A stretch of 41,043 bases of DNA, taken from an uncultured Candidatus Saccharibacteria bacterium (GTDB lineage Bacteria; Patescibacteriota; Minisyncoccia; UBA6257; XYB1-36-10). The stretch spans positions 1 through 41,043 of the forward strand of contig CAYIDJ010000004.1 of NCBI GenBank assembly GCA_964362215.1. The letters run 5' to 3'. The position numbers and the translations under genes are program-made. Of this stretch, positions 22,454 through 37,907 are shown one piece after another. The notes under the pieces were generated by a model, which did no database searches, had not been told where the DNA came from, and saw nothing but the letters and a program-made list of their open reading frames with translations. Numbering within the stretch: position 1 is the first letter of the stretch; the number at the start of each line of letters is the position of its first letter.

Positions 22454-22639
22454 TTACCAGCTGGATTTTTTAATACCGGGGATTTTTCCTTGAGAAGCCA
22501 TTTCCCGAAAACAGATACGGCATAATCCGAAGTCGCGCATAAAGCCGCGTTTGCGACCGCAATGAAAACACCGATTGACACGTCGGGTGGAAAACTTTGG
22601 TTTTTTCTTCGCGCGAGCGATGACGGATTGTTTAGCCAT
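22454..22639 (-). CDS. rpsZ: 30S ribosomal protein S14 type Z (zinc form)
   Basis: 61 aa with CxxC..CxxC ([23 protein letters not shown]). Confidence 0.96.
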
Positions 22640-23126: not shown

Positions 23127-23128
23127 AT

Positions 23129-23440: not shown

Positions 23441-23471
23441 ATGGTGGTTAAACTCTAAATAATATTGAATC

Positions 23472-23840
23472 TTAAACGATTTCTTCGGCTAAGTTAGCAA
23501 TCTTATCAAAACCTTTTTCTTTCAACTCGCGCGGAATAGGACCAAAGATGCGGGTAGCGACCGGCTCACGCTTGGCGTCAATAATGACGGCGGCATTATC
23601 GTCAAAACGGACGCGGGTGCCGTCAATACGTTTGACGGCGCTGCGGGAACGGACGATGACCGCTTTTATTATGTCTTTCTTTTTCAGGTTCTTGCGCGGC
23701 TCGGCGACTTGAACGGAAGCAACAATAATATCGCCCAAGCGGGCGTAGCGGCGACGAGTGCCGCCCAAAACACGGAAGCACCGAATGATTTTGGCTCCGG
23801 AGTTGTCGGCTACTTTAATAATGGCTCGTTCCTGGATCAT
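23472..23840 (-). CDS. rplN: 50S ribosomal protein L14
   Basis: MIQERAIIKVADNSGAK...IFGPIPRELKEKGF. Confidence 0.97.
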   Translation of the reverse strand: MIQERAIIKVADNSGAKIIRCFRVLGGTRRRYARLGDIIVASVQVAEPRKNLKKKDIIKAVIVRSRSAVKRIDGTRVRFDDNAAVIIDAKREPVATRIFGPIPRELKEKGFDKIANLAEEIV

Positions 23841-23848
23841 ATATTTAT

Positions 23849-23879
23849 AAACTCTAAATCCTAAATTCTAAACTCTAAA
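23849..23879 (-). repeat. two copies of the recurrent intercistronic element (mRNA sense TTTAGAGTTTA)
   Basis: Plus-strand AAACTCTAAA occurs at 22033, 23450, 23849, 23870, 25584, 26481, 29697 and 33730. Seven of the eight copies lie 8-13 nt upstream of an r-protein start codon. Confidence 0.8.
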
Positions 23880-23899
23880 CAATATTGAAACTATTACTT

Positions 23900-24205
23900 T
23901 TACAAATTTTCGCCAACGGGCGGCTGATTTTCCGATTTAGCGGTGCGGCCGATGATGCGCCAGCGTTTAGCGCGCGATAAGGGGCGTGTCTCCTCAATTA
24001 TCACTTCGGAACCGACGGGATAGGCATTGTTGGCATCATGCGCTTTGAAGGAATGAGTGGAGCGGATGTATTTTCCATACTTGGGGTGGCGGTGAGTTCG
24101 GGAAACTGAAACTACGCGTGTTTTGTTCATGCGGTCAGAAATAACTACGCCGATGAGACGTCTTTTTAATTTAGGATTAGCGGTTTTAGCTGTAAGGGTG
24201 GACAT
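23900..24205 (-). CDS. rpsQ: 30S ribosomal protein S17
   Basis: GVVISDRMNKTRVVSV...HPKYGKY...HD. Confidence 0.95.
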   Translation of the reverse strand: MSTLTAKTANPKLKRRLIGVVISDRMNKTRVVSVSRTHRHPKYGKYIRSTHSFKAHDANNAYPVGSEVIIEETRPLSRAKRWRIIGRTAKSENQPPVGENL

Positions 24206-24216
24206 AATATATAAAA

Positions 24217-24426
24217 TTAACGAGCTGAGCGACTAAGTTCGGAAAGTTTTGTTTTAAGCCGTGCCACTTCTTTTTTGGCGGCGGTGATGGATTTGACGTT
24301 TTTAACCTTACCGCTCAAAAGATCAAAACGCATGGTTTGTAAAGCGTGCTCGCGTTCTTTTATCATCCGCTCCAGTTCGGCGGTCGGTTTGTCGGCCAGG
24401 GATATTATAAATTGTTTGCGTTTCAT
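24217..24426 (-). CDS. rpmC: 50S ribosomal protein L29
   Basis: 69 aa, coiled and basic, lying between rplP and rpsQ. Confidence 0.9.
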   Translation of the reverse strand: MKRKQFIISLADKPTAELERMIKEREHALQTMRFDLLSGKVKNVKSITAAKKEVARLKTKLSELSRSAR

Positions 24427-24436
24427 AAAAATATAG

Positions 24437-24850
24437 TTAGCGCTTGAAAATTATTTTGGTTTTGACGGGAAGCTTGTGGCCGGCGAGACGGAAAGCAGAA
24501 CGCGCGAGCGTTTCACTGACGCCATCCAATTCAAATAAGACGCGGCCGGGGCGGACAGGAAAAACATAATGGTCGACCGCTCCTTTACCGGAACCCATGG
24601 TTACTTCGGCCGGTTTTTTGGTGACAGGCTTGTCCGGAAAAACTCTAATCCAAAGCTTGCCTTCACGCTTGAGATGGTTGGTAATCGCCCGGCGAGCGGC
24701 TTCAATCTGATTGGAAGAAAGCCAAGAGCTAGCAAGCGACTGCAGACCGAACTTGCCGAAAGAAACGTCTCGGCCGCGGGTTTCAACTGTGCGTTTCCGA
24801 GAACGCCCTTTTTGCCACTTGCGGTGTTTAACTTTTTTAGGAATAAGCAT
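24437..24850 (-). CDS. rplP: 50S ribosomal protein L16
   Basis: [11 protein letters not shown]..., [14 protein letters not shown]. Confidence 0.97.
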
Positions 24851-24859
24851 AGGATTTGA

Positions 24860-25573
24860 TTAACTGATACGGCGTTCTGAAATTGACTTTGATTCCCGTG
24901 GCGCTGGAGCCGCGGATAAGAAAGCTACTTCGCCCTTATTGACCCAAACCTTTATACCAATAGTACCGAAGGTTGTAAAGGCAGTGGCTTCTCCGTATTC
25001 AATGTTGACGCGTAATGTTTGGAGAGGAATAGTGCCTTTAGCAAACCACTCACGGCGCGCGATTTCGGCGCCGTCCAGACGTCCGGCAACTTTGATTTTA
25101 ACGCCGCGGACGTCCCGCCCGTGCATGGCCTGGTCAATATATTTTTTGACCACCCGGCGAAAACGAAGACGTTTTTCCAAATCCCAAGCGATTTGTTGGG
25201 CAGTATGCGCGGCCGAAACATCATTGCGTTTTAACTCTTCAATATCCAAGTTTAAAGGCGGAGAAACGGATGGCGGTAATTTGAGTTTACTTAAGGCCTG
25301 ATTCAGCTGCTGGCGAAGGCGATTGATGCCCTCGCCGCCACGCCCGATAATAATACCCGGACGGGCGGCGCGAACAGTGACGCGGCAGCCGCCGGTAGTG
25401 CGGTCTATGGTAATTTCGGCAATGCCGCTTTGGTTTACTTCCCGGCGGATGACCCGGCGAATAGTTTCATCGGCCTCCAAAAAGGGCTGATAACTGCCTT
25501 TAAAGAACCAGCGTGAAATCCAAGATTTGGTGATTCCTAAGCGGAATGAGTCAGGTCTTATTTTTTGGCCCAT
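24860..25573 (-). CDS. rpsC: 30S ribosomal protein S3
   Basis: MGQKIRPDSFRLGI..., KH domain GIIIGRGG, and RREW..G. Confidence 0.97.
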   Translation of the reverse strand: MGQKIRPDSFRLGITKSWISRWFFKGSYQPFLEADETIRRVIRREVNQSGIAEITIDRTTGGCRVTVRAARPGIIIGRGGEGINRLRQQLNQALSKLKLPPSVSPPLNLDIEELKRNDVSAAHTAQQIAWDLEKRLRFRRVVKKYIDQAMHGRDVRGVKIKVAGRLDGAEIARREWFAKGTIPLQTLRVNIEYGEATAFTTFGTIGIKVWVNKGEVAFLSAAPAPRESKSISERRIS

Positions 25574-25603
25574 AATATAATATAAACTCTAAACAAATTT
25601 GAA

Positions 25604-26134
25604 TTAGATGCTTTTACGGCGGAAGAATCTTCGGAAGACGCCGCTCTTCTCGCTTTCGGGAATAACTTCTTTGCCGGAAGGCGGAAGAATATGTTTAGCG
25701 GACGATTTGGATTTGGTTTTAGTAACGGCAGCAGATTCTTTTTTATGCTTAGACTCGCGACGAGGAGGAGGAATGATGGTAAAGGCAGGTTTTATTTTAT
25801 CATTTTCCGACAAGATTACCGTAACAATGGAAGTGCGTTTTAAAATCGGGGAGGCGGAGCCGCGGGCACGAGGCATAAAACGTTTTAACATACGTCCGCC
25901 GTCAACAGTTATTGTTTTAATATACAGGCGGGCGGCGGCGGCAGATTGGTTGTGAGTAGCGTCAGCCACGGCGGAACGAACTAGTTTTAAGAGAGGGACG
26001 GAGGAGCGCTCGCGACTAAACATAAGTTCGGCTTCAGCGGCCGAAATGGAAAGGCCGCGCAGGCGGTCAGCAACCAACCGCACTTTGCGGGGAGCGATAC
26101 GCAGATTTCTTAAAATGGCGCGTTGGGTAATCAT
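25604..26134 (-). CDS. rplV: 50S ribosomal protein L22 with ~65-aa Lys/Ser-rich C-terminal extension
   Basis: Core LRIAPRKVRLVADRLRG...RARGSASPILKRTSIVTVIL, followed by an extra tail. Total 176 aa. Confidence 0.94.
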   Translation of the reverse strand: MITQRAILRNLRIAPRKVRLVADRLRGLSISAAEAELMFSRERSSVPLLKLVRSAVADATHNQSAAAARLYIKTITVDGGRMLKRFMPRARGSASPILKRTSIVTVILSENDKIKPAFTIIPPPRRESKHKKESAAVTKTKSKSSAKHILPPSGKEVIPESEKSGVFRRFFRRKSI

Positions 26135-26136
26135 GG

Positions 26137-26472
26137 TTATTTCTTATTTTGGTTGGGGGCGGAAGCGGGACTGCCGGCGGCGGTTTCTTGAGCTTTCTTT
26201 TCTAATTCTTTTTGGATTTTACCGCCATGGCGGATAAATTTGCGAGTAGGAGAAAATTCACCCAAATGGTGGCCGACCATGTCTTCCACAACCCGTACTT
26301 CTATAAAATTCTTGCCGTTATGGACGGCAAAAACGTGGCCGATCATTTCAGGAGATACTTCCGAAGAGCGCGACCAAGTTTTAATAACCGTTTCGCCGGG
26401 GTTGGTGACAGCGGCAACTTTTTTGAGCAGACGCGGGTCAACGAAAGGGCCTTTTTTTAGTGAACGAGACAT
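26137..26472 (-). CDS. rpsS: 30S ribosomal protein S19
   Basis: [11 protein letters not shown]..., VHNGK, GEF.PTR. Confidence 0.97.
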
Positions 26473-26502
26473 ATATTATTAAACTCTAAACAATGGTAAT
26501 TT

Positions 26503-27336
26503 TTAACTTTTACGGCGGCGGCGGGAAGAAATAATAAGAGCCGAGGACGACTGTTTTCGGTGGCGGGTACGGCGGCCGCCAGTAATGTTGCCCCAGATGT
26601 CTTTGGGACGCTTGGTGCCGCGCTGGGTTTGACCTTCACCGCCGCCGTAGGGATGGTCAACTGGATTCATAGCCGAACCGCGAACGGTGGGGCGGATGCC
26701 TAAGTGGCGGGAACGGCCGGCGTTGCCGATAACAACCAAGTTGTTTTCGGGATTGCTGGCGCGGCCGACGGTAGCAAATCCGTCAGAGAGAATCTTGCGC
26801 ACCTCGCCGGAGGGGAGTTTTAAGTTGGTGTATTTACCTTCTTGGGCGGACACTTCAACATAAGAGCCGGCCGAACGTGCTAATTGACCGCCGCGGCCGG
26901 GAGAAAGTTCGGCATTAAAAACTTGATAACCAACGGGAATGTTTTTGAGCGGCAGGCGGTTGCCGGAAGTAAGAGGGGCATCAAGAGAAGTGATGACCCT
27001 ATCCCCTACTTTAGCATCGGACCAAGCCAGAACATAAGAACGTCCGCCGTTGTCATAAACCAAGCGGGCGATAAAGGCCGTGCGATAGGGATCATATTCT
27101 ATGGCTTCAACGCGCGCCGGCAGATTGAGTTTGGATTGCTTGAAGTCAATTAAGCGATAAAGTTTTTTGTGTCCGCCGCCTTGGTGGCGCACAGTGATGC
27201 GTCCCTGGGAGTTGCGGCCGGAGTGAGACTTCAAGTGGACGGTCAAACGTCTAAAGGGACGAGATACAGAAATCGGCGACAGGTCAGTGACAGTCATCTG
27301 CCGGCGGCCGGGGGTTACTGGTTTAAATTTCTTCAT
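26503..27336 (-). CDS. rplB: 50S ribosomal protein L2
   Basis: MKKFKPVTPGRR start at 27336 (the track's 27378 extension is unlikely). GNR.P, MNPVDHPYGGGEG. Confidence 0.97.
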   Translation of the reverse strand: MKKFKPVTPGRRQMTVTDLSPISVSRPFRRLTVHLKSHSGRNSQGRITVRHQGGGHKKLYRLIDFKQSKLNLPARVEAIEYDPYRTAFIARLVYDNGGRSYVLAWSDAKVGDRVITSLDAPLTSGNRLPLKNIPVGYQVFNAELSPGRGGQLARSAGSYVEVSAQEGKYTNLKLPSGEVRKILSDGFATVGRASNPENNLVVIGNAGRSRHLGIRPTVRGSAMNPVDHPYGGGEGQTQRGTKRPKDIWGNITGGRRTRHRKQSSSALIISSRRRRKS

Positions 27337-27346
27337 AGAATAAATA

Positions 27347-27628
27347 CTACTGGGAAATAATATCAATGTGGTCGCCATCTTTGACGGTAACGACCGCTTT
27401 TTTAATCTTGCTTTTTTTGACCGAAGACCGGAAGCGAAATTTGGTGGCGGGGCGGGGGCGGTTTAAAACATTAACGGATACCACTTTGACGCTGTATATT
27501 TTTTCAATGGCCTGTTTAATTGATGGTTTGGTAGCATTGCCGTCAACGACAAACACATACTGGTTGTGGTGGGACAGATCGCCAGCCTTTTCAGTAATAT
27601 GGGGGTGTTTGATTAGAAGATTGTTCAT
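27347..27628 (-). CDS. rplW: 50S ribosomal protein L23
   Basis: HPHITEKA..., VFVVDGNATKPSIKQAIEKIY.VKV. Confidence 0.95.
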   Translation of the reverse strand: MNNLLIKHPHITEKAGDLSHHNQYVFVVDGNATKPSIKQAIEKIYSVKVVSVNVLNRPRPATKFRFRSSVKKSKIKKAVVTVKDGDHIDIISQ

Positions 27629-28305
27629 AAAACAATTTTCATTTGGGGTGATTTGCTTCGCAAATTTTTATCAGAAGAGGCAGTCAGAGCGGAAAAATCA
27701 GCAACGGCGGAGCGTTCCATTAGCAGCTGGCGGCGAGAGGATATGTCATAAACATTCAAAGAAGCCGGCGAAGAAGTAATAATATTGGAAATATTGCGCG
27801 CGCCGCGGACAAGGCCGGATTTAGCGTCACGACCGGATATTAATATGGCGCTGGGGAAAGGGCGGTGGAAATTTTTAACAAGGAAAGAGATGACACTCTT
27901 GGTTTGGCCGTCCGAAGGAAGAGATTCAAAAACCTTGAGATCACCATCGGTCAGGCGCTTAGAAAGAAGGGAGAAAAGAGCTGCCTGCTTTTGTTTTTTA
28001 TTTATTTTCTGGGTGTAAGAACGCTCGGAAGTCGGTCCGTGAGAAACGCCGCCGCCAGCCCAAATAGGAGAACGGCTGGAACCGTGGCGGGCGCGACCGG
28101 TTCCCTTTTGACGCCAGGGTTTGCGGCCGCCACCACGCACTTCGCCCCGTCCTTTGGTGTGAGCCAGGGGCTCGCGGGCATTGGCGCGATGAGCGAGAAT
28201 AGCAAAATGAACCAAAGTCGGATTCCAGGCAACGCCGAAGATGGTATCCGGAAGTTCTACAGCGCCAACGGTTTTACCTTCAATATTGTAAAGCGGAGTG
28301 TTCAT
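27625..28305 (-). CDS. rplD: 50S ribosomal protein L4
   Basis: KGRGEVRGGGRKPWRQKGTGRARHGS motif. ATGA overlap with rplW. Confidence 0.96.
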   Translation of the reverse strand: MNTPLYNIEGKTVGAVELPDTIFGVAWNPTLVHFAILAHRANAREPLAHTKGRGEVRGGGRKPWRQKGTGRARHGSSRSPIWAGGGVSHGPTSERSYTQKINKKQKQAALFSLLSKRLTDGDLKVFESLPSDGQTKSVISFLVKNFHRPFPSAILISGRDAKSGLVRGARNISNIITSSPASLNVYDISSRRQLLMERSAVADFSALTASSDKNLRSKSPQMKIVL

Positions 28306-28311
28306 AGCGCA

Positions 28312-28935
28312 TTAATTAGATTTATTTTCTTTGGCGGAAGCCGATTCTCCGCCCAAGGCGGAGGCAAGGCGACGAATAGTCAAAAGAGTGCGGCGATTAC
28401 CGGGAACGGCGCCTTTGATTAAAAGTTCGCCGGCGTCTGGATTTACCGCGATAACGGTTAAGTTTTTAATCGTGATCTTGCGTCCGCCCATACGGCCGCC
28501 CATGCGCATTCCTTTAAAAACCCGCTGGACGCCGCCGGCGCCGATAGAGCCAGGGGCGCGCAGGCGGTCTTTGGTGCCATGCGTTTTTTTAGAGCCGGCG
28601 AAGCCGTGCCTTTTAACAACTCCTTGAAAGCCCTTACCGATAGAAAGACCGGAAACAGAGATGTTGTCCCCGGGAGAAAAATCAGATACGGAAACGACGC
28701 GTCCCGCTTTTATTTCTTCCGGAAGAGAGGAAAGAAGGCGGAATTCGCGGTGGACGCGGCGGCGGCCGACGGGAGCGGAGGCAGAAAGGCGGACAGCGAT
28801 GTAGCCATCGCGTTCTTTGGTACGAATAAGGTCAATTTTATTGGGAGCGGCCTTAATAACAGTCACGGGAATGACCTTTTCATCTTTCCACACTTGAGTC
28901 ATGCCGGTTTTCTTGCCGAGGATAAATGCTTCCAT
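28312..28935 (-). CDS. rplC: 50S ribosomal protein L3
   Basis: ILGKKTGMTQVW..., KGFQGVVKRHGF.G....HG. Confidence 0.96.
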   Translation of the reverse strand: MEAFILGKKTGMTQVWKDEKVIPVTVIKAAPNKIDLIRTKERDGYIAVRLSASAPVGRRRVHREFRLLSSLPEEIKAGRVVSVSDFSPGDNISVSGLSIGKGFQGVVKRHGFAGSKKTHGTKDRLRAPGSIGAGGVQRVFKGMRMGGRMGGRKITIKNLTVIAVNPDAGELLIKGAVPGNRRTLLTIRRLASALGGESASAKENKSN

Positions 28936-29046
28936 AAATTTTACATATGTTCCGGCATAAAAAGAAGAGGGATGTCCCCTCCTCGCCAGAAGAGAGTTTT
29001 CTCTCTTCCCGCTTTAAATTCCGGGAACCGTATGTAAGATAGGGAT

Positions 29047-29076
29047 ATTGTAACTTATGGGGGGTGGATTTGTCAA
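29047..29076 (-). promoter_or_regulatory. candidate internal promoter TTGACA-18-TACAAT ahead of rplC
   Basis: On the minus strand: TTGACA (29076-29071) and TACAAT (29052-29047), the same hexamers as the tuf promoter. The ~105-nt leader carries hairpins GAAGAGAG/CTCTCTTC and GAGGG/CCCTC. Confidence 0.4.
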
Positions 29077-29117
29077 AGAGAGACTCGCCATATCAAAACA
29101 GGAAGTTGGTGTATTTA

Positions 29118-29214
29118 GAAAAAGCTTCCTTTCGAGACACGGGTATTTTTTTGCTAAAAAATCCCTCTAACTCGCACCGTCGTGCTCCGCGCGGTCTCGA
29201 AAGGAAGCTTTTTC
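29118..29214. repeat. perfect 21-bp inverted repeat GAAAAAGCTTCCTTTCGAGAC / GTCTCGAAAGGAAGCTTTTTC with 55-nt loop
   Basis: Arms at 29118-29138 and 29194-29214 are exact reverse complements, located in the rpsJ-rplC spacer. Confidence 0.9.
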
Positions 29215-29289
29215 TTCATAAATGATGCATAGAAGGAGGTTTTGATGTGGGCTCGCTAGGGTTGGTGGAGGAAGATTCACGTGTAATTG

Positions 29290-29316
29290 CAAAACTCCCC
29301 TTAAGGGGGAGTTTTG
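29290..29316. terminator. palindromic terminator-like hairpin just after rpsJ
   Basis: CAAAACTCCCC-TTAA(G)-GGGGAGTTTTG. A GC core is flanked by A4/T4, so it is usable on either strand. Confidence 0.5.
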
Positions 29317-29335
29317 ATAAATGTTTGGAGGGCGG

Positions 29336-29683
29336 TTACGCGCGGGCGCCAGTGCCGAGTCCGGTCTTAATTTCAATATCAATGCCGGCGGGAAGATTCA
29401 GGTTAGAGAGGGATTCAATAATTTCTTTATTGGGGTTTAAGATGTCAATAAGACGTTTGTGAATGCGAAGTTCAAACTGCTCACGGGCGGTTTTGTGGAC
29501 AAAGGTGGAGCGGTTGACCGTGTATTTTTTGAATTCGGTGGGAAGAGGAATGGGGCCAACGATGTCGGCATTATGACGTTTGGCGGTTTCAATAATCTGG
29601 CGGCAGGAGTTGTCAACCAGTCGGTGATCGTAGCCGCGCACCCGCAGGCGGAGAAATTCAGCTTGACTTTTTTTAACGGCCAT
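29336..29683 (-). CDS. rpsJ: 30S ribosomal protein S10
   Basis: LRLRVRGYDHRLVD.S...IV..A......GPIPLPT...YTV.RS.....S.EQFE.R.HKRLIDI. ATG 29683 is preferred over the TTG at 29698. Confidence 0.96.
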   Translation of the reverse strand: MAVKKSQAEFLRLRVRGYDHRLVDNSCRQIIETAKRHNADIVGPIPLPTEFKKYTVNRSTFVHKTAREQFELRIHKRLIDILNPNKEIIESLSNLNLPAGIDIEIKTGLGTGARA

Positions 29684-29753
29684 ATTCAGAATAATCAAAC
29701 TCTAAACCCTAAATAATGTCAAAATTCAAAATTATAAACTCAAAACGAATTGA

Positions 29754-30953
29754 TTATTTGACAATTTTAGTAACAACGCCGGCGCCGACAGTGCGTCCGC
29801 CCTCACGGATAGCAAAGCGCTGTTGTTCTTCCAGAGCGACCGGTGAGATAAGGGAAACCTTGAAGGTGATGGTGTCTCCGGGCATGACCATTTCCGTGCC
29901 TTCCGGAAGTTCAACCGAGCCGGTAACATCGGTGGTGCGGATATAGAACTGCGGCTTATAACCCTTAAAGAAAGGAGTGTGCCGTCCGCCTTCCTCTTTG
30001 GTTAAGACATAAACTTCGGCTTCAAAATCGGTGTGAGGAGTAACGGAGCCGGGCTTGGACAGCACCTGACCGCGCTCAATATCTTCCTTTTTGAGACCGC
30101 GCAAGAGGATGCCAACGTTGTCGCCAGCCTGGCCGGAGTCCAGTGTTTTGTTAAACATCTCAATGCCGGTAACGACAGCTTTTTGAGTGTCGCGAAGGCC
30201 AATGACTTCAATTTCTTCATTGGCGTTGACGACTCCCCTTTCAATGCGGCCGGTGGCAACGGTGCCGCGGCCTTCAATGGAAAAGATATCTTCAACCGGC
30301 ATCAGAAAGGGCTTATCAATTTCACGCTTGGGTTCGGGGATATAAGTGTCAAGTTTTTCCACCAGTTCCAGAATCGGTTTGGCGGCTTCATCATCGGCAG
30401 AAGCGGCCTCTAAGGCCTTAAGAGCCGAACCGCGGATAACAGGAGCGTTATCGCCGTCAAATTTATACTTTTTAAGAAGTTCACGAACCTCGGATTCAAC
30501 TAAATCAATGAGCTCGGGGTCGTCTACCTGGTCAACTTTGTTGATAAAAACAATAACATTAGGCACGCCGACTTGGTGGGCAAGTAAGATGTGCTCGCGC
30601 GTCTGCGGCATCGGGCCGTCGGTGGCGGCCACGACTAAAATAGCTCCGTCCATCTGGGCCGCGCCGGTAATCATGTTCTTAATGTAGTCAGCGTGGCCGG
30701 GAGCGTCAACGTGCGCGTAGTGGCGCTTGGCGGACTCATATTCGGAGTGGTGAAGAGCAATAGTAATACCGCGGGCTTTTTCCTCGGGGGCGTTGTCAAT
30801 CTGGTCAACCCTTTCCTCTTTCTTGGTCCAGCCTTTGAGGAAGAGAATGTGAGTAATAGCCGCGGTCAGCGTGGTTTTGCCGTGGTCGACGTGACCAATG
30901 GTGCCGACATTGATGTGCGGCTTGGAACGATTAAATTTTTCTTTTTCGGCCAT
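29754..30953 (-). CDS. tuf: elongation factor Tu
   Basis: [22 protein letters not shown], and full-length similarity pattern over 399 aa. Confidence 0.99.
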
Positions 30954-31004
30954 AGTAAAAAAATAGTTGATTAATAATAATAGCGAAAACGATCAGACTT
31001 GGTT

Positions 31005-31033
31005 AATTGTAGAGGGAGATGCTTTTAATGTCA
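31005..31033 (-). promoter_or_regulatory. near-consensus promoter TTGACA-17-TACAAT upstream of tuf
   Basis: On the minus strand: TTGACA (31033-31028) and TACAAT (31010-31005). The -35 box lies inside hairpin GAGGGAG..CTCCCTC (31011-31040). Confidence 0.5.
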
Positions 31034-31054
31034 ACTCCCTCAAACTGTCTATGG

Positions 31055-33160
31055 TCATTTTCGGCCGGCAATGATTTCTAGTTCAACGTTTTTAGGCGCC
31101 GGCTCATAGGCGAAGAATTCCATAGTGAAGTTGCCGCGGCCTTGGCTTAGAGAACGCAGTTTGGTGGCATAACCGAACATTTCGGAAAGCGGCACTTTGG
31201 CGTCAATGACCTTTATTCCTCCTTCGCGGTCTTCCATGGATTCAATCTGGCCACGTTTGGAGTTAAGGTCGCCGGTGGCATCGCCTAAAAATTCGGCCGG
31301 CACGATAACTTGCACTTTCATAATCGGTTCAAGCAAAATCGGCCGGGCGGACTTAGCGGCGGAAGAGAAAGCCATAGAAGCGGCTATTTTGAAAGCGGCT
31401 TCCGAGGAGTCAACTTCGTGATAGGAACCGTCGTAGAGAGTAACTTCAACGTCAACGACCGGAAAACCGGCGACGACACCCTTACTTAAGGCTTCTTTGA
31501 CGCCTTTCTCCACAGCGGGGATAAACTCGTTTGGAATAGAGCCACCTTTAATGGCGTTGGTAAACTCAAAGCCGGAGCCGCGTTCCCGCGGGGCGACGCG
31601 CAGCCGGACATGGCCGTACTGGCCGCGGCCGCCGGACTGTTTGATATACTTACCCTCGCCTTCGGAGGAAGCGGAAACAGTTTCTTTATAAGCGACCTGC
31701 GGGCGGCCAACAGTGGCGGTTACGCCGAACTCGCGTTTCATGCGTTCCACCAGTATTTCCAGATGCAACTCGCCCATACCGGCGATAATGGTTTCACCGG
31801 TTTCAATGTTACCCGAGACACGGAAAGTGGGGTCCTCTTCCGCCAGGCGGTGAAGAGCTAAACCCATTTTCTCCTGGTCGGCTTTAGTTTTAGGTTCAAC
31901 TTTGACGCTGATAACCGGGTCGGGAAAATCAATTTTTTCCAAGAGGAGCGGGTGGTCGGGATCGCAGAGAGTGTCGCCGGTAGTGGTGTCTTTGGCGCCG
32001 ACTAAGGCGCCGATGTCGCCGGCACAGATTTCGTCCGCTTCTTCGCGCTGGTTGGCGTGCAGACGGACAATACGGCCAACCCGTTCCTGTTTGTCCTTGC
32101 TGGCATTTAAGATATAACTGCCTTTTTTAAAAACACCCGCGTAGACGCGGAAGAACACTAAACTGCCGACGTAGGGGTCGGTGGCCACTTTGAAAGCCAG
32201 CGCGGCCAGCGGCGCGGAGTCGTCGGCGGTGATTAAAATTTCTTGGTCGGTTTTCGGATTAACGGCTTTGACGGGAGGGACTTCAACCGGAGAAGGCAGG
32301 TAGTCAATGACGGCATCTAAAATAAGCTGAACGCCTTTGTTTTTGAGAGCGCTGCCGCAGAGCACCGGAATGAGTTTGCCCTCGATGGTGGCGCGGCGGA
32401 GGACCCGTTTTAAGTCGGCTAGTTCCGGTTCACGGCCTTCCAGATACAACTCCAGCAGTTTTTCATCCTGCTCCACTATTTTTTCAATAAGTCGCGCGCG
32501 GTAGGATTCCACTTCGCCGGTAAGATTGGCGGGAGTATCAATTTTTTCCAAATGCTCACCAAAATCGCCGCTAAAGCCGTAGGCCTGGCGCTCAAAAAGG
32601 TCAATAACGCCGGAAAAAGCCGATTCACTGCCGATAGGAATCTGAATGGGAATAGCCCGTTTAGAAAGACGACTATGAATAGAAGCTAAGCTTTTTTCAA
32701 AACTCGCGCCCAGGCGGTCAAGTTTGTTGATAAAACAAAGGCGAGGCACGTTGTATTTGTCGGCCTGACGCCAGACGGTCTCCGATTGGGGCTCAACACC
32801 GGCTACGCCGTCAAAGACAACCACGCCTCCGTCTAACACGCGCAGAGAACGTTCCACTTCCACGGTGAAATCAACATGACCGGGGGTGTCAATAAGGTTA
32901 ATGCGATGTTCGTAATTTTTGTCGCTGCCATGGGAGGTGGGAATCCAGAAGCAGGTGGTGGCGGCAGAGGTGATAGTAATCCCCCGCTCCCGTTCCTGCT
33001 CCATCCAGTCCATAATAGCCGCGCCTTCGTGCACTTCGCCGATTTTGTGAGAAATGCCGGTATAAAAAAGGATGCGCTCGGAAACGGTGGTTTTGCCAGC
33101 GTCAATGTGAGCGATAATGCCGATATCACGAACTCTGTCAATTGGGTATTGGCGAGGCAC
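31055..33160 (-). CDS. fusA: elongation factor G
   Basis: 701 aa with GTG start. [22 protein letters not shown] and EF-G domain IV/V motifs. Confidence 0.99.
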
Positions 33161-33224
33161 GTTAAAAATTTAAAGTTTAAATATTAAAATATAAAATCAG
33201 AGAAGAAAAAAAGAGGAGACGCGG

Positions 33225-33719
33225 TTAAAAGCTAACTTTCTTTTTCTTGGTAAAACGGGCGAAGTGAGCGAAGGCGCGATTGGCTTCCGCCATTTTGTGG
33301 GTGTCAGCTTTCTTTTTGATGGCGGCGCCGGCGTTGTCGGAAGCGGCCATCAGTTCCTCGGCTAAACGAGAAGCGATAGGCATGCCTTTTTTGGAGCGGG
33401 CGGCGTTCAAAATCCAGCGAACAGCGAGGATGAAACGGCGGTCAAGACGGACCTCAATCGGAATCTGATAGTTGGCGCCGCCGACGCGGCGGCTGGCAAG
33501 TTCCACGGCGGGAGAGACGTTTTCAATCGCTTTATCAAATACAGCTAAAGGGTCGCTGCTGGTTTTGGCCTTGATAATATCCAAGGCGCGGTAAAAGGCG
33601 CGTTCGGCAACTGTTTTCTTGCCGTTTTTCATAATGGCATTAATGAAACGGCCGACGTCCACACGCTGGTAGACGGGGTCGGGAAGATAGTGTTTTCGGT
33701 AAACGCGCTTTTTACGCAT
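33225..33719 (-). CDS. rpsG: 30S ribosomal protein S7
   Basis: DPVY...V..FIN.IM..GKK..AE..FY.A, VGGANYQIP.EV. Confidence 0.97.
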   Translation of the reverse strand: MRKKRVYRKHYLPDPVYQRVDVGRFINAIMKNGKKTVAERAFYRALDIIKAKTSSDPLAVFDKAIENVSPAVELASRRVGGANYQIPIEVRLDRRFILAVRWILNAARSKKGMPIASRLAEELMAASDNAGAAIKKKADTHKMAEANRAFAHFARFTKKKKVSF

Positions 33720-33776
33720 AGACAGTATTAAACTCTAAACAATATCAAAACTCAAAATCATAAATTCAAATATGAA

Positions 33777-35087: not shown

Positions 35088-35270
35088 ATGAGACAGTGTG
35101 CTATCTGCGGCAAGGGGTCAATAATGGCCAACCGCCGCAAAAAATTAAGAGGAAATTATAATCCGACAGGTAGAAGCCGCCGGTATCCCAATTTACAAAA
35201 AACCACCTACGAAGGGGGGAAAGTTTTAGCGTGCACGGAGTGCATATCTAAAACTAAAAAAGTTGCGTAA
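35088..35270 (+). CDS. rpmB: 50S ribosomal protein L28
   Basis: MRQCAICGKGSIMAN...RRYPNLQK....GGKVLACTECI fits the L28 pattern. ATG 35088 is preferred over the track start at 35028. Confidence 0.8.
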   Translation: MRQCAICGKGSIMANRRKKLRGNYNPTGRSRRYPNLQKTTYEGGKVLACTECISKTKKVA

Positions 35271-35271
35271 A

Positions 35272-35622
35272 TTAGGGAGTTGATTTTTGAAGAGGCCGGC
35301 GCAAGCCGGTTTTTTGGCGGCGGACGTCAAGATATTTATGAAAACGGAAAACGGCGGGGGTGCGAAAGGTGGGACGGCCGGGGCGTTTGCCGACTTTGGA
35401 GTGATTCTTCATAATAAGATAAATTGTAAAGGATATTGACAAAAAAATGAAGCCGTAGAAGAATAAAGATAGAACATTGATTGATTTGATTTGACGGCGG
35501 CGGCGCGATGAATTCAGGTAGTTGTTATTCAGAGAAGAATCCGGGGATTCGCGCCGCCGCCGACCAAATTTAAAGTAGCCACTCTCACCCGCCGCTGGGG
35601 CTGATGGACCCGTAGCCATCAA
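35272..35622 (-). CDS. hypothetical basic single-pass membrane protein (116 aa); could be a non-coding structured region
   Basis: A strong SD, AAAGGAGGAAA, lies 9 nt before ATG 35622, and there is one TM segment. However, the ORF crosses a 14-bp GC-rich inverted repeat (35495-35508 / 35549-35562, giving two RRRR tracts) and the rpmB terminator. Confidence 0.35.
   Translation of the reverse strand: MMATGPSAPAAGESGYFKFGRRRRESPDSSLNNNYLNSSRRRRQIKSINVLSLFFYGFIFLSISFTIYLIMKNHSKVGKRPGRPTFRTPAVFRFHKYLDVRRQKTGLRRPLQKSTP
35294..35316 (+). terminator. intrinsic terminator after rpmB
   Basis: GGCCGGC-GCAA-GCCGGT followed by TTTTTT. Confidence 0.65.
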
Positions 35623-35753
35623 TTATTTCCTCCTTTCAATCATGCCCAGGCGGGTTTTTGTTTGGATAAGCTGGGATGGACTGGGTTGCTAGATTACTGG
35701 AGGATTAGTAACTTGATAAATTAGATAGTCGGATTATTGAATGAGGTGGGAAG

Positions 35754-35782
35754 TTGAGACAAAGTGGAAAGTAAGATACAAT
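35754..35782 (+). promoter_or_regulatory. candidate promoter TTGAGA-17-TACAAT
   Basis: TTGAGA 35754-35759, 17-nt spacer, TACAAT 35777-35782. Confidence 0.4.
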
Positions 35783-35788
35783 TAAAAT

Positions 35789-35916
35789 AGAACATCCGTC
35801 GGAAAAGCCCGCCGAGGGCCCAGAAAGGTAATTCTGCGTTTTATTGTATCAGGTCATTGCGTGGCCAAGAGGTACAAAAAACAGAAAAATCGACTAAGGG
35901 CTTGAGGCGGGTTTTA
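35789..35916 (+). ncRNA. candidate ~125-nt long-hairpin small RNA upstream of tRNA-Pro (identity unknown)
   Basis: Closing helix CCCGCC..GGCCC (35808-35821) pairs with GGGC..GGCGGG (35898-35911) and is followed by TTTT. Inner helices are UUCUG/CAGAA, UUGUAUC/GGUACAA and GGUCA/UGGCC, capped by UUGCG. Confidence 0.3.
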
Positions 35917-35990
35917 CTTTAGATAACTAGAAACTGGATGGTTGGATAAACTGGAGAGGAGATGAGATGGAAAAACCACAAGTTTTGGCT

Positions 35991-35996
35991 TATAAT
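35991..35996 (+). promoter_or_regulatory. TATAAT box 10 nt upstream of tRNA-Pro
   Basis: Exact TATAAT, but no convincing -35 box. Confidence 0.3.
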
Positions 35997-36006
35997 AATT
36001 TAAAAA

Positions 36007-36077
36007 CGGGCTGTAGTATACCGGCAGTACGCATGCATGGGGTGCATGTAGACCGGGTTCGATTCCCGGCAGCCCGA
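36007..36077 (+). tRNA. tRNA-Pro (anticodon GGG)
   Basis: CGGGCTG-TA-GTAT/ACCGGCA/GTAC-G-CATGC-ATGGGGT-GCATG-TAGA-CCGGG-TTCGATT-CCCGG-CAGCCCG-A. C1-G72, G37 and A73 are typical of tRNA-Pro. CCA is not encoded. Confidence 0.85.
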
Positions 36078-36085
36078 CAGTGGTG

Positions 36086-37096
36086 ATGAAAAATTTACTG
36101 GAGCAGGTAGGTAAAGTTTTGTTTATGAAAACTCAAGTTTTAAAAAATAAAAAAGAATTATTTATTTCCCCAAATTCGCCGTTCCATTTTGACGGTACTT
36201 TTCATAAACCCTCTCATTTCCCTGACAAGTTAGATGATTGGGAAAGTGGTAAATATTGGCAAGCTATCAGAATTGATAAAAAGTTGTTTGGTCTTAAAAT
36301 TGAAAACAAAGGCAAGACGCAAAAGCCAAAGATAAAAGTTTCGGTTTTTTATAATAAAGGCGTTTCTAACAAGGAAATTGAGGGTATAAAGCAGGAAGTT
36401 ATTTGGCGTTTTGACTTAAACGCAGACTTGAAAGAATTTAACAAGCTTGCTAAAAACGATAAACGCTTTTATCCAATTTTTAGAAAATGGTTGGGAATGC
36501 GAAATTCTAGTTCAGAGGATTTGTACGGATTGCTTATTGTTGCAGTGGTTTTGCAAAATGCGACAATTAGACGAACGGTTCAGATGATGAATGCCTTGCT
36601 TGATAACTATGGGACAAAACTAAAATTTGACGGCAAAGAAATTTTTGCGATTTGGCTTCCTGAAAACTTGGAAAATGTTTCTGAACAAGATTTAAGAAAT
36701 TTGAAAATTGGATATAGGGCAAAATTTATAAAGCGTTTATCGCAAGATTTTGCCGAGGGTAAAATTGACGAGCTGAAATTACGAACACTTGACCAAGAAA
36801 GTGCGAGGAAAGAGTTAATAAAATTGTATGGAGTCGGACCGGAAACCGCTCGCATTTTGCTTTTTGAGGTTTGTCATCAATATAATACTTTTGACCATGT
36901 CGCACCGTGGCAACAAAAAATATATTCTCGGCTCTTTTATGAAAAGCCACTTGTTCCGGCGAACAAAATCAGAGACGACATTAAAAAACAATATGGAAAA
37001 TACTCTATGCTCGCGGTTCATTACATTTGGGAAGATATTTTTTGGAGAAGAAAGAACGAAAAAATAGAGTGGTTGGAGAAAGAAATTAGACTTTGA
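36086..37096 (+). CDS. HhH-GPD superfamily DNA glycosylase (AlkA / 3-methyladenine glycosylase II-like)
   Basis: Helix-hairpin-helix LYGVGPETARILLFE with Asp 11 aa downstream of the motif (TFDHV). A+T-rich codon usage. Start uncertain (GTG 36080, ATG 36086 or ATG 36125). Confidence 0.7.
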   Translation: MKNLLEQVGKVLFMKTQVLKNKKELFISPNSPFHFDGTFHKPSHFPDKLDDWESGKYWQAIRIDKKLFGLKIENKGKTQKPKIKVSVFYNKGVSNKEIEGIKQEVIWRFDLNADLKEFNKLAKNDKRFYPIFRKWLGMRNSSSEDLYGLLIVAVVLQNATIRRTVQMMNALLDNYGTKLKFDGKEIFAIWLPENLENVSEQDLRNLKIGYRAKFIKRLSQDFAEGKIDELKLRTLDQESARKELIKLYGVGPETARILLFEVCHQYNTFDHVAPWQQKIYSRLFYEKPLVPANKIRDDIKKQYGKYSMLAVHYIWEDIFWRRKNEKIEWLEKEIRL

Positions 37097-37124
37097 TTTT
37101 GTCTGATAATCTAATAGATTAAAG

Positions 37125-37147
37125 ACCGCTGAAAATAGCGGTTTTTG
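37125..37147 (+). terminator. intrinsic terminator after the glycosylase gene
   Basis: ACCGCT-GAAAAT-AGCGGT followed by TTTTT. Confidence 0.6.
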
Positions 37148-37165
37148 CATTTCTGTGTTTTAGGT

Positions 37166-37247
37166 ACACACATATGGCGGTTTAATTAACTTGTAATCGG
37201 CCAGAAATTCATTTGGCGTTTTGCCGTTTAAACCGCCATATGTGTGT
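37166..37247. repeat. perfect 20-bp inverted repeat ACACACATATGGCGGTTTAA / TTAAACCGCCATATGTGTGT with 42-nt loop
   Basis: Arms at 37166-37185 and 37228-37247 are exact reverse complements. It ends 18 nt upstream of a consensus -35 box. Confidence 0.9.
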
Positions 37248-37265
37248 GCACATTACCCGTTTGGA

Positions 37266-37294
37266 TTGACATTTAACTTGCTATTTGCTATAAT
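37266..37294 (+). promoter_or_regulatory. perfect consensus sigma70-type promoter TTGACA-17-TATAAT
   Basis: TTGACA 37266-37271, exactly 17 nt, TATAAT 37289-37294. Confidence 0.65.
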
Positions 37295-37376
37295 AAATTA
37301 CCCCAACGTGAGGGATATAATTTGATGGTGCAAAGGTCAGTTACTGACCCAACACAAAGAGAAAGGAGGAAGGACC

Positions 37377-37532
37377 ATGTTTGCTTTTGGCTATATAAGG
37401 CAAGGGGCACAATGGCAAGGTAGTGGCGAGATACCAATCGTCATTGGGTTGATAATTTGGATTGGTTTTTTTGTCAGTTACCCCTGCGTTCTTTGGTATA
37501 TTGGTGAGATATTCTTTCGGCAAAAAACATAA
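37377..37532 (+). CDS. 51-aa hydrophobic peptide MFAFGYIRQGAQWQGSGEIPIVIGLIIWIGFFVSYPCVLWYIGEIFFRQKT (below ORF-track cutoff)
   Basis: AAAGGAGGAAGG ends 3 nt before ATG 37377, and the ORF is bracketed by the consensus promoter and a terminator. One long hydrophobic segment. Confidence 0.55.
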   Translation: MFAFGYIRQGAQWQGSGEIPIVIGLIIWIGFFVSYPCVLWYIGEIFFRQKT

Positions 37533-37556
37533 CTCCGTCACCATAATACTCGATCG

Positions 37557-37595
37557 CCCTGCGCGCATTATTATACGTCGCAGGGTTTTTTCTTT
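37557..37595 (+). terminator. intrinsic terminator of the small-peptide cassette
   Basis: CCCTGCG-15 nt-CGCAGGG followed by TTTTTTCTTT. Confidence 0.6.
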
Positions 37596-37871
37596 CCAAA
37601 AAAATTTCAAAAGGGTTTTTAAAAATATTAAAAAAAATTAAGGGCAAATAAAATTTCATATAACGTATCCGTATATCTGTAGTTTACATTGAGCGAAGCG
37701 AAATGTAAATTTGGGCGTAGCCAGATATACGGTGTTAGATAATGTAGCGACTGAAAGGAGCTATTTTATCTAACTCGTTATTATACGAATAAAATAAAGA
37801 TAGAATGACCTTTTTGGTGTCTTAGACGAAAACGGAATGATAATAACATATGATTATCGGCAGAAAGGCCT

Positions 37872-37899
37872 TTGATTTTATGGCAAGTTGTGATAAAAT
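37872..37899 (+). promoter_or_regulatory. candidate promoter TTGATT-16-TGA-TAAAAT (extended -10)
   Basis: TTGATT 37872-37877 and TGATAAAAT 37891-37899, with 8 nt to ATG 37908. No SD. Confidence 0.45.
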
Positions 37900-37907
37900 G
37901 AGTAATT

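What the first reader, a model, noticed from the sequence alone, without database searches (positions are those of the whole stretch)
37266..37595. Orphan cassette: perfect consensus promoter, strong SD, 51-aa hydrophobic peptide, terminator (type I toxin-like) not in the ORF track
TTGACA-17-TATAAT (37266-37294) is the only perfect consensus promoter I found in the window. About 75 nt downstream, AAAGGAGGAAGG precedes ATG 37377. The ORF encodes MFAFGYIRQGAQWQGSGEIPIVIGLIIWIGFFVSYPCVLWYIGEIFFRQKT and is followed by CCCTGCG/CGCAGGG plus T6. The 5' UTR carries hairpin GGTCAG-TTA-CTGACC (37335-37349). On the opposite strand, TTGCCA (37418-37413) and TATATA (37397-37392), spaced only 15 nt apart, could start a ~50-nt antisense RNA. 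That RNA would cover the start codon and SD and end at the same hairpin followed by TTTG. A tiny membrane peptide with its own strong signals and a possible cis-antisense partner fits type I toxin-antitoxin loci. It could instead be a small effector or immunity peptide linked to the neighbouring C39-like peptidase.
Basis: partly seen in the sequence, partly recalled or inferred. Interest (0 to 1): 0.72.

Follow-up and report, generated by a model that had tools for sequence, protein, structure and literature searches.

The report
Mobile mini-gene for a membrane peptide

Summary
The promoter is the only 12/12 sigma-70 match in the window. The three other matches with at most 1 mismatch lie upstream of the L10 leader, tuf and the S12 gene.

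An exhaustive HMMER search found one homologue, a 53-aa peptide with 68% identity, on four short metagenome contigs. Promoter, leader, SD, ORF and terminator are all conserved there. The stop-to-terminator spacer is only about 54% identical. The ORF shows dN/dS of about 0.36 and an in-frame 6-nt indel. It is the only ORF kept in both copies, so it is probably coding. It is predicted to be a single-pass membrane helix.

The module looks foreign and mobile. Its GC3 is 0.38 against about 0.54 for host genes. The host almost never uses an SD. The closest relatives of both neighbouring genes lack it. Identical copies elsewhere have three different right-hand neighbours.

It abuts an attC-like junction hairpin of a family that forms arrays between small ORFs in phage contigs.

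The C39 peptidase link is not supported.

Best reading: a moron-like or cassette-like mobile unit expressing a small membrane peptide. A type I toxin role remains possible but is unproven.

The parts
37266..37294 (+). Perfect sigma-70 promoter TTGACA-17-TATAAT with an extended -10 TG
   Evidence: It scores 12/12 and is the only perfect match in the window. L012 333-361 is also 12/12, with 26 of 29 nt identical.
37302..37314 (+). Small conserved hairpin (CCC-N7-GGG) at the predicted 5' end of the transcript
   Evidence: It is kept in the consensus fold of the window and L012. The CCCAAYGTGAGGG sequence is conserved.
37335..37349 (+). 5'-UTR hairpin GGTCAG-TTA-CTGACC, present here but not conserved
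   Evidence: It folds. A 5-nt deletion plus substitutions remove it in L012.
37362..37373 (+). Strong Shine-Dalgarno AAAGGAGGAAGG, with AGGAGG at 37364-69, 7 nt before the ATG
   Evidence: Seen, and conserved as AAGGAG in L012. It is atypical for this genome: at most 3 of 37 other genes have any SD-like core.
37377..37532 (+). ORF for a 51-aa peptide predicted to be a single-pass membrane helix (residues about 18-50) with a basic C-terminus RQKT
   Evidence: ORF listed. Homologue P0241 has 68% identity at E 8e-16. dN/dS is 0.36 with an in-frame 6-nt indel. It is the only ORF conserved in both copies. AlphaFold2 predicts a helix at 18-50. The best 19-residue hydropathy window is 2.39.
37533..37556 (+). 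Poorly conserved spacer between the stop codon and the terminator, used as a neutral yardstick
   Evidence: It is about 54% identical with indels between the window and L012.
37557..37591 (+). Intrinsic terminator: 10-bp G+C-rich stem with a bulge, inner mini-stem, then T6
   Evidence: It folds. It is about 95% identical in L012.
37592..37615 (.). Invariant block after the terminator (CTTTCCAAAAAAATTTCAAAAGGG). In L012 the same block also occurs as an inverted copy upstream of the promoter.
   Evidence: It is part of a 41-nt invariant stretch. The L012 inverted repeats are 304-327/661-684 and 277-295/699-717.
37570..37599 (-). Candidate antisense promoter TTGGAA-18-TATAAT, with the -10 in the terminator loop and the -35 in the invariant block. 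Unverified.
   Evidence: It scores 10/12. It is conserved as TTGGAA-18-TATAGT (9/12) in L012. Matches of this quality are common by chance: 20 found against 11 expected in 6 kb.
37392..37418 (-).
   Evidence: The 15-nt spacer falls outside the scanned 16-18 range. Both hexamers are changed in L012.
37658..37740 (.). attC-like junction hairpin: ATATAAC-GTAT-CCGTATATCTG ... CAGATATACGG-T-GTTAGAT. Homology with the other module copies ends at TAA|C (37663|37664).
   Evidence: It is the only such site in the window, against 0.07 expected in shuffles. The same architecture with different, always complementary stems occurs in L012, L013 and L014 and as arrays in phage contigs.
37734..37788 (.). Palindrome GTTAGAT...ATCTAAC followed by TCGTTATTATACGA, resembling the leader of the phage array
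   Evidence: Inverted repeat I3. On the minus strand, TCGTATAATAACGAGTTAGATAAAATAG compares with L018 GCGTATAAAAAGAGTTAGATGAAATAT.
37164..37250 (.). Perfect long hairpin (20-bp arms, 42-nt loop) directly upstream of the promoter. It replaces the left flank seen in L012. Role unknown.
   Evidence: Seen (z = -7). There is no similarity to L012 upstream of the -35.

Best explanation
The feature is a horizontally acquired, self-contained expression cassette, comparable to a phage 'moron' or a promoter-bearing integron-type cassette. A consensus sigma-70 promoter with an extended -10 drives a roughly 290-nt mRNA. That mRNA has a small 5'-terminal hairpin, a 75-nt leader, a strong SD, a 51-codon ORF and an intrinsic terminator.

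**Shown**
- Every one of these parts, and the reading frame, is conserved in a second, diverged copy, while the intervening spacer is not.
- The unit is compositionally foreign.
- It is absent from the closest relatives of both flanking genes.
- It ends at an attC-like hairpin junction where identical copies elsewhere have different neighbours.

**Inferred**
- The peptide inserts into the cytoplasmic membrane as one helix, with its basic C-terminus inside, and is made constitutively.
- It most likely serves the mobile DNA or its host at the membrane.
- I rate a protective, exclusion or immunity-type small membrane protein (like the small, inner-membrane HK97 moron protein gp15) at about 0.35.
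- I rate a membrane toxin restrained at the RNA level (type I-like) at about 0.3.
- The remainder covers other small-membrane-protein roles.
For: **Signals**
- All signals are present and the promoter is unique in the window.
- The other near-consensus promoters lie upstream of the L10 leader, tuf and the S12 gene, so this promoter type is used in this genome.

**Conservation in the second copy**
- The homologue P0241 comes with its whole module on L012-L015.
- Segment identities: promoter 26/29, leader about 80%, ORF 79% nt and 68% aa, spacer about 54%, terminator plus 24 nt about 95%.
- dN/dS is 0.36 with an in-frame indel.
- Antisense ORFs are not conserved.
- A transmembrane helix is predicted.

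**Foreign origin**
- GC3 is 0.38 (0.33 for the adjacent HhH-GPD gene) against about 0.54 for host genes. An SD is used by at most 3 of 37 other genes.
- The module is absent upstream of the 93%-identical C39 gene.
- It is absent downstream of the HhH-GPD relatives checked, which are 86-92% identical.

**Mobility**
- L012, L013 and L014 are 100% identical up to GTTTAA|C(GT) and then diverge.
- The junction hairpin family has covarying stems.
- In phage L018 it forms an array between the terminase and portal genes.
- The literature defines morons by their own promoter and terminator and by deviant composition (PMC3594210).
Against: - Only two family members exist, so conservation statistics rest on one pairwise comparison.
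- Codon usage of the ORF is ambiguous: LLR is -0.02 per codon, lower than 96% of in-frame gene windows.
- No phage genes, integrase or transposase occur in the window, so 'moron' is an analogy and not a location.
- Only one junction hairpin flanks the window copy, and its left end is replaced by an unrelated perfect hairpin.
- Nothing tested here shows transcription, translation or membrane insertion.
- Whether an SD-led gene is translated well in a host that hardly uses SDs is unknown.
Confidence: 0.6

Rival explanations
1. Type I toxin-antitoxin module. The peptide is a membrane-damaging toxin. An antisense RNA started inside the terminator (TTGGAA-18-TATAAT, 37599-37570, minus strand) pairs with the 3' end of the mRNA, as SR4 does with bsrG, and blocks translation or triggers decay. 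This would stabilise the mobile cassette.
For: - The peptide is small and hydrophobic with a transmembrane helix and a basic C-terminus.
- It sits on mobile DNA.
- The antisense promoter candidate is conserved, with an A/T-rich upstream block, inside a 41-nt invariant stretch that extends 24 nt beyond the T-tract.
- The SD is predicted to be mostly paired in both mRNAs, with P(unpaired) of 0.28 and 0.16.
- Synonymous sites are unusually conserved at the ORF start, middle and end.
- The 3'-overlap architecture is known for bsrG/SR4 (PMC3834814).
Against:
- The alternative scores only 10/12 and 9/12, a quality that is common by chance.
- No conserved antisense terminator was found. The two mRNAs pair their SD with different partners.
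- The mRNA fold z-score is only -1.7.
- A perfect promoter plus a strong SD on the toxin, set against a weaker antitoxin promoter, is an unfavourable ratio.
- There is no match to Pfam, NCBIfam, PHROGs or PADLOC toxin families.
- The invariant block also exists as an inverted copy on the other side of the L012 module, so it may be a recombination or repeat element instead.
Confidence: 0.3
2. The transcript is a non-coding RNA and the 51-codon ORF is incidental.
For: - Promoter and terminator are more conserved than the ORF.
- Codon usage is ambiguous.
- A very strong promoter is typical of abundant small RNAs.
Against: - Start codon, stop codon, frame and SD are conserved.
- The only indel within the ORF is 6 nt and in frame, whereas the leader and spacer carry 5-, 7- and 4-nt indels.
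- dN/dS is 0.36.
- There is no Rfam hit, even at E up to 10.
- Predicted structure is weak, with z = -1.7.
Confidence: 0.07
3. The peptide is a substrate, effector or immunity partner of the neighbouring C39-like peptidase.
For: - The cassette lies about 375 nt upstream of the C39-like gene.
- The peptide has a G-S-G motif at residues 15-17 that could loosely resemble a double-glycine site.
Against: - The 93%-identical C39 gene in L003/L004 has no such cassette. Homology starts only at the C39 gene's own promoter, around 37868.
- The held sequence around the homologous module (L012-L015) contains no C39 gene, although those contigs are short.
- A terminator and an attC-like junction separate the two genes.
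- There is no canonical leader motif.
Confidence: 0.03

Closest known systems
Phage morons (e.g. the HK97 gene 15 moron, encoding a small inner-membrane superinfection-exclusion protein)
   Same: - One small gene bracketed by its own sigma-70 promoter and factor-independent terminator.
- Composition differs from the surrounding genes.
- It spreads horizontally.
- The product is a small membrane protein (PMC3594210).
   Different: - It is not inside a recognisable phage or prophage here.
- There is no sequence similarity to gp15/YebO or any PHROG.
- An exclusion function is untested.
Type I toxin-antitoxin loci with 3'-overlapping antisense RNA (bsrG/SR4, yonT/SR6 of Bacillus subtilis)
   Same: - A hydrophobic single-TM peptide of fewer than 60 aa, with its own promoter, a long leader and a terminator.
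- A location on mobile DNA.
- A conserved candidate convergent promoter at the 3' end (PMC3834814, PMC5848175).
   Different: - No antitoxin RNA has been demonstrated.
- The candidate promoter is weak.
- There is no homology to any described toxin family.
- The toxin-side expression signals are maximal, not restrained.
Integron gene cassettes and attC sites (CALIN; promoter-bearing toxin-antitoxin cassettes of chromosomal integrons)
   Same: - The module abuts an imperfect palindrome with RYYYAAC-like and GTTRRRY-like ends. Its inner stem differs in sequence from copy to copy but stays complementary.
- Identical modules have different neighbours, with the break at GTTTAA|C. That equals G|TTAAAC on the other strand.
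- Related hairpins form arrays separating small ORFs.
- In integrons, cassettes that carry their own promoter are mostly addiction modules (PMC13108822, PMC4889954).
   Different: - No integron integrase was found in the window or in the L018 ORFs that were checked.
- There is only one site in the window.
- Spacer geometry differs: 4-5 nt on one side against 1 nt on the other.
- In the phage arrays the ORFs read through the hairpin arm and end in the other arm.
- The arrays sit between the terminase and portal genes of a phage.
- The IntegronFinder attC model could not be run.
PeSL promoter/stem-loop motifs that shuffle small ORFs in T4-type phages
   Same: Repeated stem-loop motifs flank small orphan ORFs in hyperplastic phage regions and mediate gain and loss of the ORFs between them (PMC2839356, PMC4122927).
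   Different: - PeSLs are a stem-loop plus an early promoter and recombine by sequence homology.
- Here the stems differ in sequence, the conserved parts are the AAC/GTT palindrome ends, and no promoter is evident in the junction.

Membership tests
Type I toxin-antitoxin system | Small (under about 60 aa) hydrophobic toxin with a transmembrane segment | tested here: met
   The peptide has 51 aa. The best 19-residue Kyte-Doolittle window is 2.39 at residues 21-39. AlphaFold2 predicts a helix at 18-50 with pLDDT of about 86.
Type I toxin-antitoxin system | Antisense (or trans) RNA antitoxin with its own promoter, base-pairing with the toxin mRNA | tested here: inconclusive
Another candidate, TTGGAA-18-TATAAT/TATAGT, is conserved but weak, and no conserved antisense terminator was found. 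There are no transcript data.
Type I toxin-antitoxin system | Sequence membership of a described toxin family (Hok, Ldr, Fst, TxpA, BsrG and others) | tested here: not met
   There are no hits in Pfam, NCBIfam, PHROGs or PADLOC, with E-value limits from 0.1 (Pfam) to 10.
Type I toxin-antitoxin system | Toxicity of the peptide on expression, relieved by the RNA | not testable with these tools
   This requires an expression experiment.
Phage moron | Single gene with its own promoter and its own terminator | tested here: met
   Shown, and conserved in L012.
Phage moron | [quoted passage not shown] | tested here: met
   GC3 is 0.38 against about 0.54 for host genes. The SD is atypical for the host. 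The module is absent from relatives.
Phage moron | Inserted between genes of a phage or prophage genome | tested here: not met
   The window carries ribosomal, SecA, ComEC, Cu-ATPase and similar genes and no phage genes. Only the adjacent hairpin family is seen in phage contigs.
Integron cassette / attC (CALIN) | attC: an imperfect palindrome with RYYYAAC ... GTTRRRY ends, conserved in structure and variable in sequence | tested here: inconclusive
   The ends are ATATAAC ... GTTAGAT with an 11-bp stem. Stems covary among copies. Spacer geometry is atypical. The curated attC covariance model was not available.
Integron cassette / attC (CALIN) | At least two attC sites clustered (CALIN), or an integron integrase nearby | tested here: not met
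   There is one site in the window. No tyrosine recombinase was found among the window proteins scanned. Arrays exist only in other loci (L012, L018).
Integron cassette / attC (CALIN) | Same cassette found with different neighbours, with the break at G|TT of the R' box | tested here: met
   L012, L013 and L014 are identical up to GTTTAA|C(GT) and then different.
C39 peptidase substrate (double-glycine leader peptide) | Conserved co-occurrence with the peptidase gene | tested here: not met
   The closest C39 relative lacks the cassette. The held sequence around the homologous module contains no C39 gene.
Known RNA families (Rfam 15) | Covariance-model match | tested here: not met
   There is no hit at gathering thresholds. 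At E up to 10 there are only spurious microRNA/snoRNA matches.

The most novel reading that the evidence does not exclude
The module may be a cassette of a previously undescribed, integron-like but integrase-less shuffling system, shared by groundwater phages and ultra-small bacteria. In this reading, structure-specific hairpin junctions (AAC ... GTT ends with variable complementary stems) mark the exchange points. The promoter-bearing, inverted 51-aa peptide cassette would act as a type I-like addiction or defence element that stabilises such arrays.
Probability: 0.15. Interest if true: 0.75.

Novelty: new member of a known kind. Interest (0 to 1): 0.4.

Why it matters
- It adds a new, very rare small-membrane-protein family, with two members among 1.84 billion representative proteins. 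The members come from two different metagenome studies.
- Gene callers annotated the wrong strand here.
- It shows a complete, consensus-signal expression unit imported into a genome that itself barely uses Shine-Dalgarno sequences. That makes it a natural test of how foreign genes are expressed in such hosts.
- The adjacent hairpin junctions, shared with phage cassette arrays, hint at a route of gene exchange between phages and these bacteria.
- None of this is a major surprise for specialists in small proteins or mobile elements unless the junction system proves to be new.

Tried and rejected
- **Word-indexed protein search** with the peptide found nothing.
- **Back-translated peptide scans** found nothing in JGI metagenomes, in GTDB genomes or in IMG/VR.
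- **blastn of 37150-37900** against phage and plasmid collections gave no match.
- **An exact 39-mer of the invariant block** gave no match in IMG/VR.
- **A C39 protein scan of GTDB genomes** found nothing.
- **Population variation**: replicate assemblies of the same population carry no SNP in the cassette, so they are uninformative.
- **Exact look-ups** of the L28 protein and the long HhH-GPD ORF found nothing.
- **Cluster look-ups for host taxonomy** returned no names.
- **Codon-usage test** was ambiguous.
- **SD-sequestration idea**: the SD is paired in both mRNAs but with different partners, so it gives no support.
- **Hammerhead ribozyme reading of the junction** was rejected, because CUGAUGA is not conserved among copies.
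- **Invertible promoter switch reading of the L012 inverted repeats** was rejected, because promoter, ORF and terminator all lie inside the repeats.
- **A 16-mer junction scan of IMG/VR** gave mostly chance hits. Only L016, L036, L099 and L022/L024 showed real architecture.

Full report
**Observation**

- The promoter is TTGACA (37266-71), 17 nt, TATAAT (37289-94), preceded by an extended -10 TG.
- AGGAGG lies at 37364-69, 7 nt before ATG 37377.
- The ORF spans 37377-37532 and encodes 51 aa.
- The terminator stem is CCCTGCGCG / CGTCGCAGGG, followed by T6 (37557-91).
- The GGTCAG-TTA-CTGACC hairpin is at 37335-49.
- TTGCCA-15-TATATA is on the minus strand.

The promoter is not a chance match. 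With at most 1 mismatch allowed, TTGACA-N17-TATAAT occurs 4 times in the window against 0.21 expected. This is the only perfect copy. The other three lie directly upstream of the L10 leader, of tuf and of the S12 gene. So this genome appears to use consensus sigma-70 promoters for highly expressed operons, and the cassette has the best one.

Public gene calls placed a 61-aa ORF on the opposite strand here and missed the 51-aa ORF.

**Is the ORF real?**

Word-indexed and back-translated searches found nothing. An exhaustive HMMER scan of 1.84 billion representative proteins found exactly one relative, P0241. It has 53 aa, 68% identity and E 8e-16. It lies on four short metagenome contigs, L012-L015.

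The whole module is there. L012 has a 12/12 promoter with TG, a homologous leader, an AAGGAG SD, the ORF, and the same terminator.

Identity differs sharply by segment:

| Segment | Identity, window vs L012 |
|---|---|
| Upstream of the -35 | none |
| Promoter | 26/29 |
| Leader | about 80%, with 5- and 7-nt deletions |
| ORF | 79% nt |
| Stop-to-terminator spacer | about 54%, with a 4-nt indel |
| Terminator plus the next 24 nt | about 95%, inside a 41-nt invariant run |

Within the ORF the only indel is 6 nt and in frame. Start and stop codons are kept. pS is 0.39 against pN 0.18, giving dN/dS of 0.36. The antisense ORFs of the window (89 aa and 61 aa) are broken or absent in L012.

Codon usage is ambiguous. 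That is expected for a short, hydrophobic and foreign gene. I conclude the ORF is very probably translated, with the caveat that this rests on a single pairwise comparison.

**The peptide**

Both homologues share MFAFGY..QG.QW.G.G, then a hydrophobic stretch (VIGL.IW.GFFV.YPCVLW.IG), then RQKT at the C-terminus. The best 19-residue hydropathy window is 2.39. AlphaFold2 predicts a short N-terminal helix and one long helix at residues 18-50, with core pLDDT of about 86. No Pfam, NCBIfam, PHROGs or PADLOC family matches.

**Foreign and mobile**

- *Composition.* The ORF has GC3 of 0.38 and the adjacent HhH-GPD gene 0.33, against about 0.54 for host genes.
- *SD usage.* Only about 3 of 37 other genes have any SD-like core. 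Several ribosomal-protein genes instead carry TTTAGAGTTT upstream of their start codons: 9 copies against 0.43 expected.
- *C39 neighbour.* The closest relative of the downstream C39-like gene (93% aa identity; L003, L004) shares only the last 35 nt or so before the ATG. That stretch is the C39 gene's own promoter. The relative has a different upstream gene and no cassette.
- *HhH-GPD neighbour.* The upstream HhH-GPD gene is 80-92% identical in contigs that sources assign to several candidate phyla, and it sits in unrelated contexts. Those contexts have no cassette downstream.
- *Different right-hand neighbours.* L012, L013 and L014 are 100% identical through the module and then diverge abruptly after GTTTAA|C(GT) into three different sequences.

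**What lies at that junction**

Directly after the conserved post-terminator region, the window has ATATAAC-GTAT-CCGTATATCTG ... CAGATATACGG-T-GTTAGAT at 37658-37740. It is the only such site in the window, against 0.07 expected in shuffles.

L012 (upstream and downstream of the module), L013 and L014 have the same architecture with different but complementary stems.

A pattern search of IMG/VR recovered the same element in a phage contig (L016/L018). There, at least 9 copies separate small SD-led ORFs in a 2.4-kb array between the large terminase and portal genes. Further examples are in L036, L099 and L022/L024.

The ends resemble integron attC core sites (RYYYAAC ... GTTRRRY, from my own knowledge). 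The break GTTTAA|C equals G|TTAAAC on the other strand. The sequence-variable, structure-conserved stems are attC-like.

There are clear differences from integrons:
- No integrase was found.
- The spacers are asymmetric.
- In the phage arrays the ORFs read through one arm (N-S-D/E-Y) and stop in the other.
- The window has a single site, so the CALIN definition is not met.

Relative to the phage arrays, the 51-aa gene is in inverted orientation. This fits with it needing its own promoter and terminator. In L012 the module is additionally bracketed by inverted repeats of about 50 nt, and one arm is the invariant post-terminator block. In the window that left arm is replaced by an unrelated perfect hairpin at 37164-37250.

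**The type I reading**

TATATA becomes TACGCT and TTGCCA becomes GTGCCA in L012. The 5'-UTR hairpin proposed as its terminator is deleted there.

A different candidate is conserved. On the minus strand, TTGGAA-18-TATAAT (37599-37570) has its -10 in the terminator loop and its -35 plus an A/T-rich upstream stretch in the invariant block. In L012 it reads TTGGAA-18-TATAGT. This would resemble the 3'-overlapping bsrG/SR4 arrangement (PMC3834814).

However:
- Promoter-like matches of that quality are common by chance.
- I found no conserved antisense terminator.
- The two mRNAs pair their SD with different partners.
- The invariant block has an alternative explanation as a repeat arm.

The type I idea therefore stays open, at about 0.3.

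**Other rivals**

- A pure RNA gene is unlikely. The frame is conserved and there is no Rfam match.
- A functional link to the C39 peptidase is not supported.

**Verdict**

The best description is a moron-like or cassette-like mobile transcription unit for a new small single-pass membrane peptide. It was imported next to a tRNA-Pro/HhH-GPD island in an uncultured groundwater bacterium.
- The window's sequence recurs in ENA assemblies named Hain_H43_01um.
- No gene separates S5 from the ORF preceding SecY, so L30 appears to be absent. From my own knowledge, that fits the Candidate Phyla Radiation.

What the peptide does is inferred only. I favour a protective or addictive membrane role.

The kind of element is known, and the family is new. 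The more unusual item is the hairpin-junction system shared with phage cassette arrays, which I followed only partly.

Noticed in passing
L018 12400-14700 (same contig as L016 1600-3880); also L036 5800-6400, L099 5214-5407, L024: Phage contigs carry arrays of small SD-led ORFs separated by hairpins of the form xxxTAAC-A-stem ... stem'-GAAC-GTTAGAT. The stems differ in sequence between copies but stay complementary. In L018 the array lies between the terminase and portal genes. The ORFs read through the 5' arm as N-S-[D/E]-Y, stop inside the 3' arm, and the loops often encode Cys-rich tails. No integrase was seen among the ORFs checked.
   Followed up: partly
window 36007-37147: A 323-aa HhH-GPD-like glycosylase gene starts about 45 nt after tRNA-Pro. 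It is 80-92% identical (81-87% at nucleotide level) to genes on contigs that sources assign to several candidate phyla, in unrelated gene contexts. Its GC3 is 0.33. It looks like a frequently transferred gene.
   Followed up: partly
window 37164-37250: A perfect hairpin (20-bp arms, z = -7) lies directly upstream of the -35 box. Its 42-nt loop contains CAGAAATTCATTTGGCGTTTTG, which matches an internal segment of the HhH-GPD gene (36392-36413) at 19 of 22 positions. Origin and role are unexplained.
   Followed up: partly
window 22033-33739 (minus strand), e.g. 23450-23459, 25584-25593, 33730-33739: The host hardly uses Shine-Dalgarno sequences. Instead, TTTAGAGTTT occurs 9 times against 0.43 expected, always on the coding strand and mostly 8-15 nt upstream of ribosomal-protein start codons. 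It may be an alternative ribosome-binding motif.
   Followed up: partly
L012 277-327 and 661-717: In the homologous copy, the promoter-ORF-terminator module is bracketed by inverted repeats of about 50 nt (24 nt at 96% plus 19 nt at 100%). The layout is MITE-like. The window keeps only the right arm.
   Followed up: partly
L013 341-475: A palindromic element of about 135 nt (long hairpin TGGCCGCGG...CCGCGGCCA plus a small hairpin ending in CATAA) is inserted exactly at the GTTTAA|C junction. L012 and L014 do not have it.
   Followed up: no
window 35270-36007: A stretch of about 740 nt between the L28 gene and tRNA-Pro has no convincing ORF and no Rfam hit. It contains a G+C-rich inverted repeat (35490-35567) and an AGGAGG 6 nt before a TTG-started 116-aa ORF on the minus strand.
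   Followed up: no
L004 390-700: In the sister genome, the region upstream of the C39 gene is a different structured stretch of about 300 nt (GCGGGCAAAAA...TTTTTGCCCGC, then AACGTCAGATTTGGG and CCGCGCGAAGCGCGG, ending in GGCGGTGTT). It loosely echoes motifs of the junction hairpins.
   Followed up: no
window 37474-37659 (minus strand): Public gene predictions call a 61-aa ORF on the strand opposite the conserved 51-aa gene. That ORF spans the terminator and is not conserved in L012, so it is likely a mis-annotation.
   Followed up: yes
L018 10001-12331: At 776 aa, the large terminase of the phage contig is unusually long. Related terminases (L019, L020) aligned only to residues 330-764. From reading its sequence I suspect an intein-like insertion, but I ran no domain search on it.
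   Followed up: no
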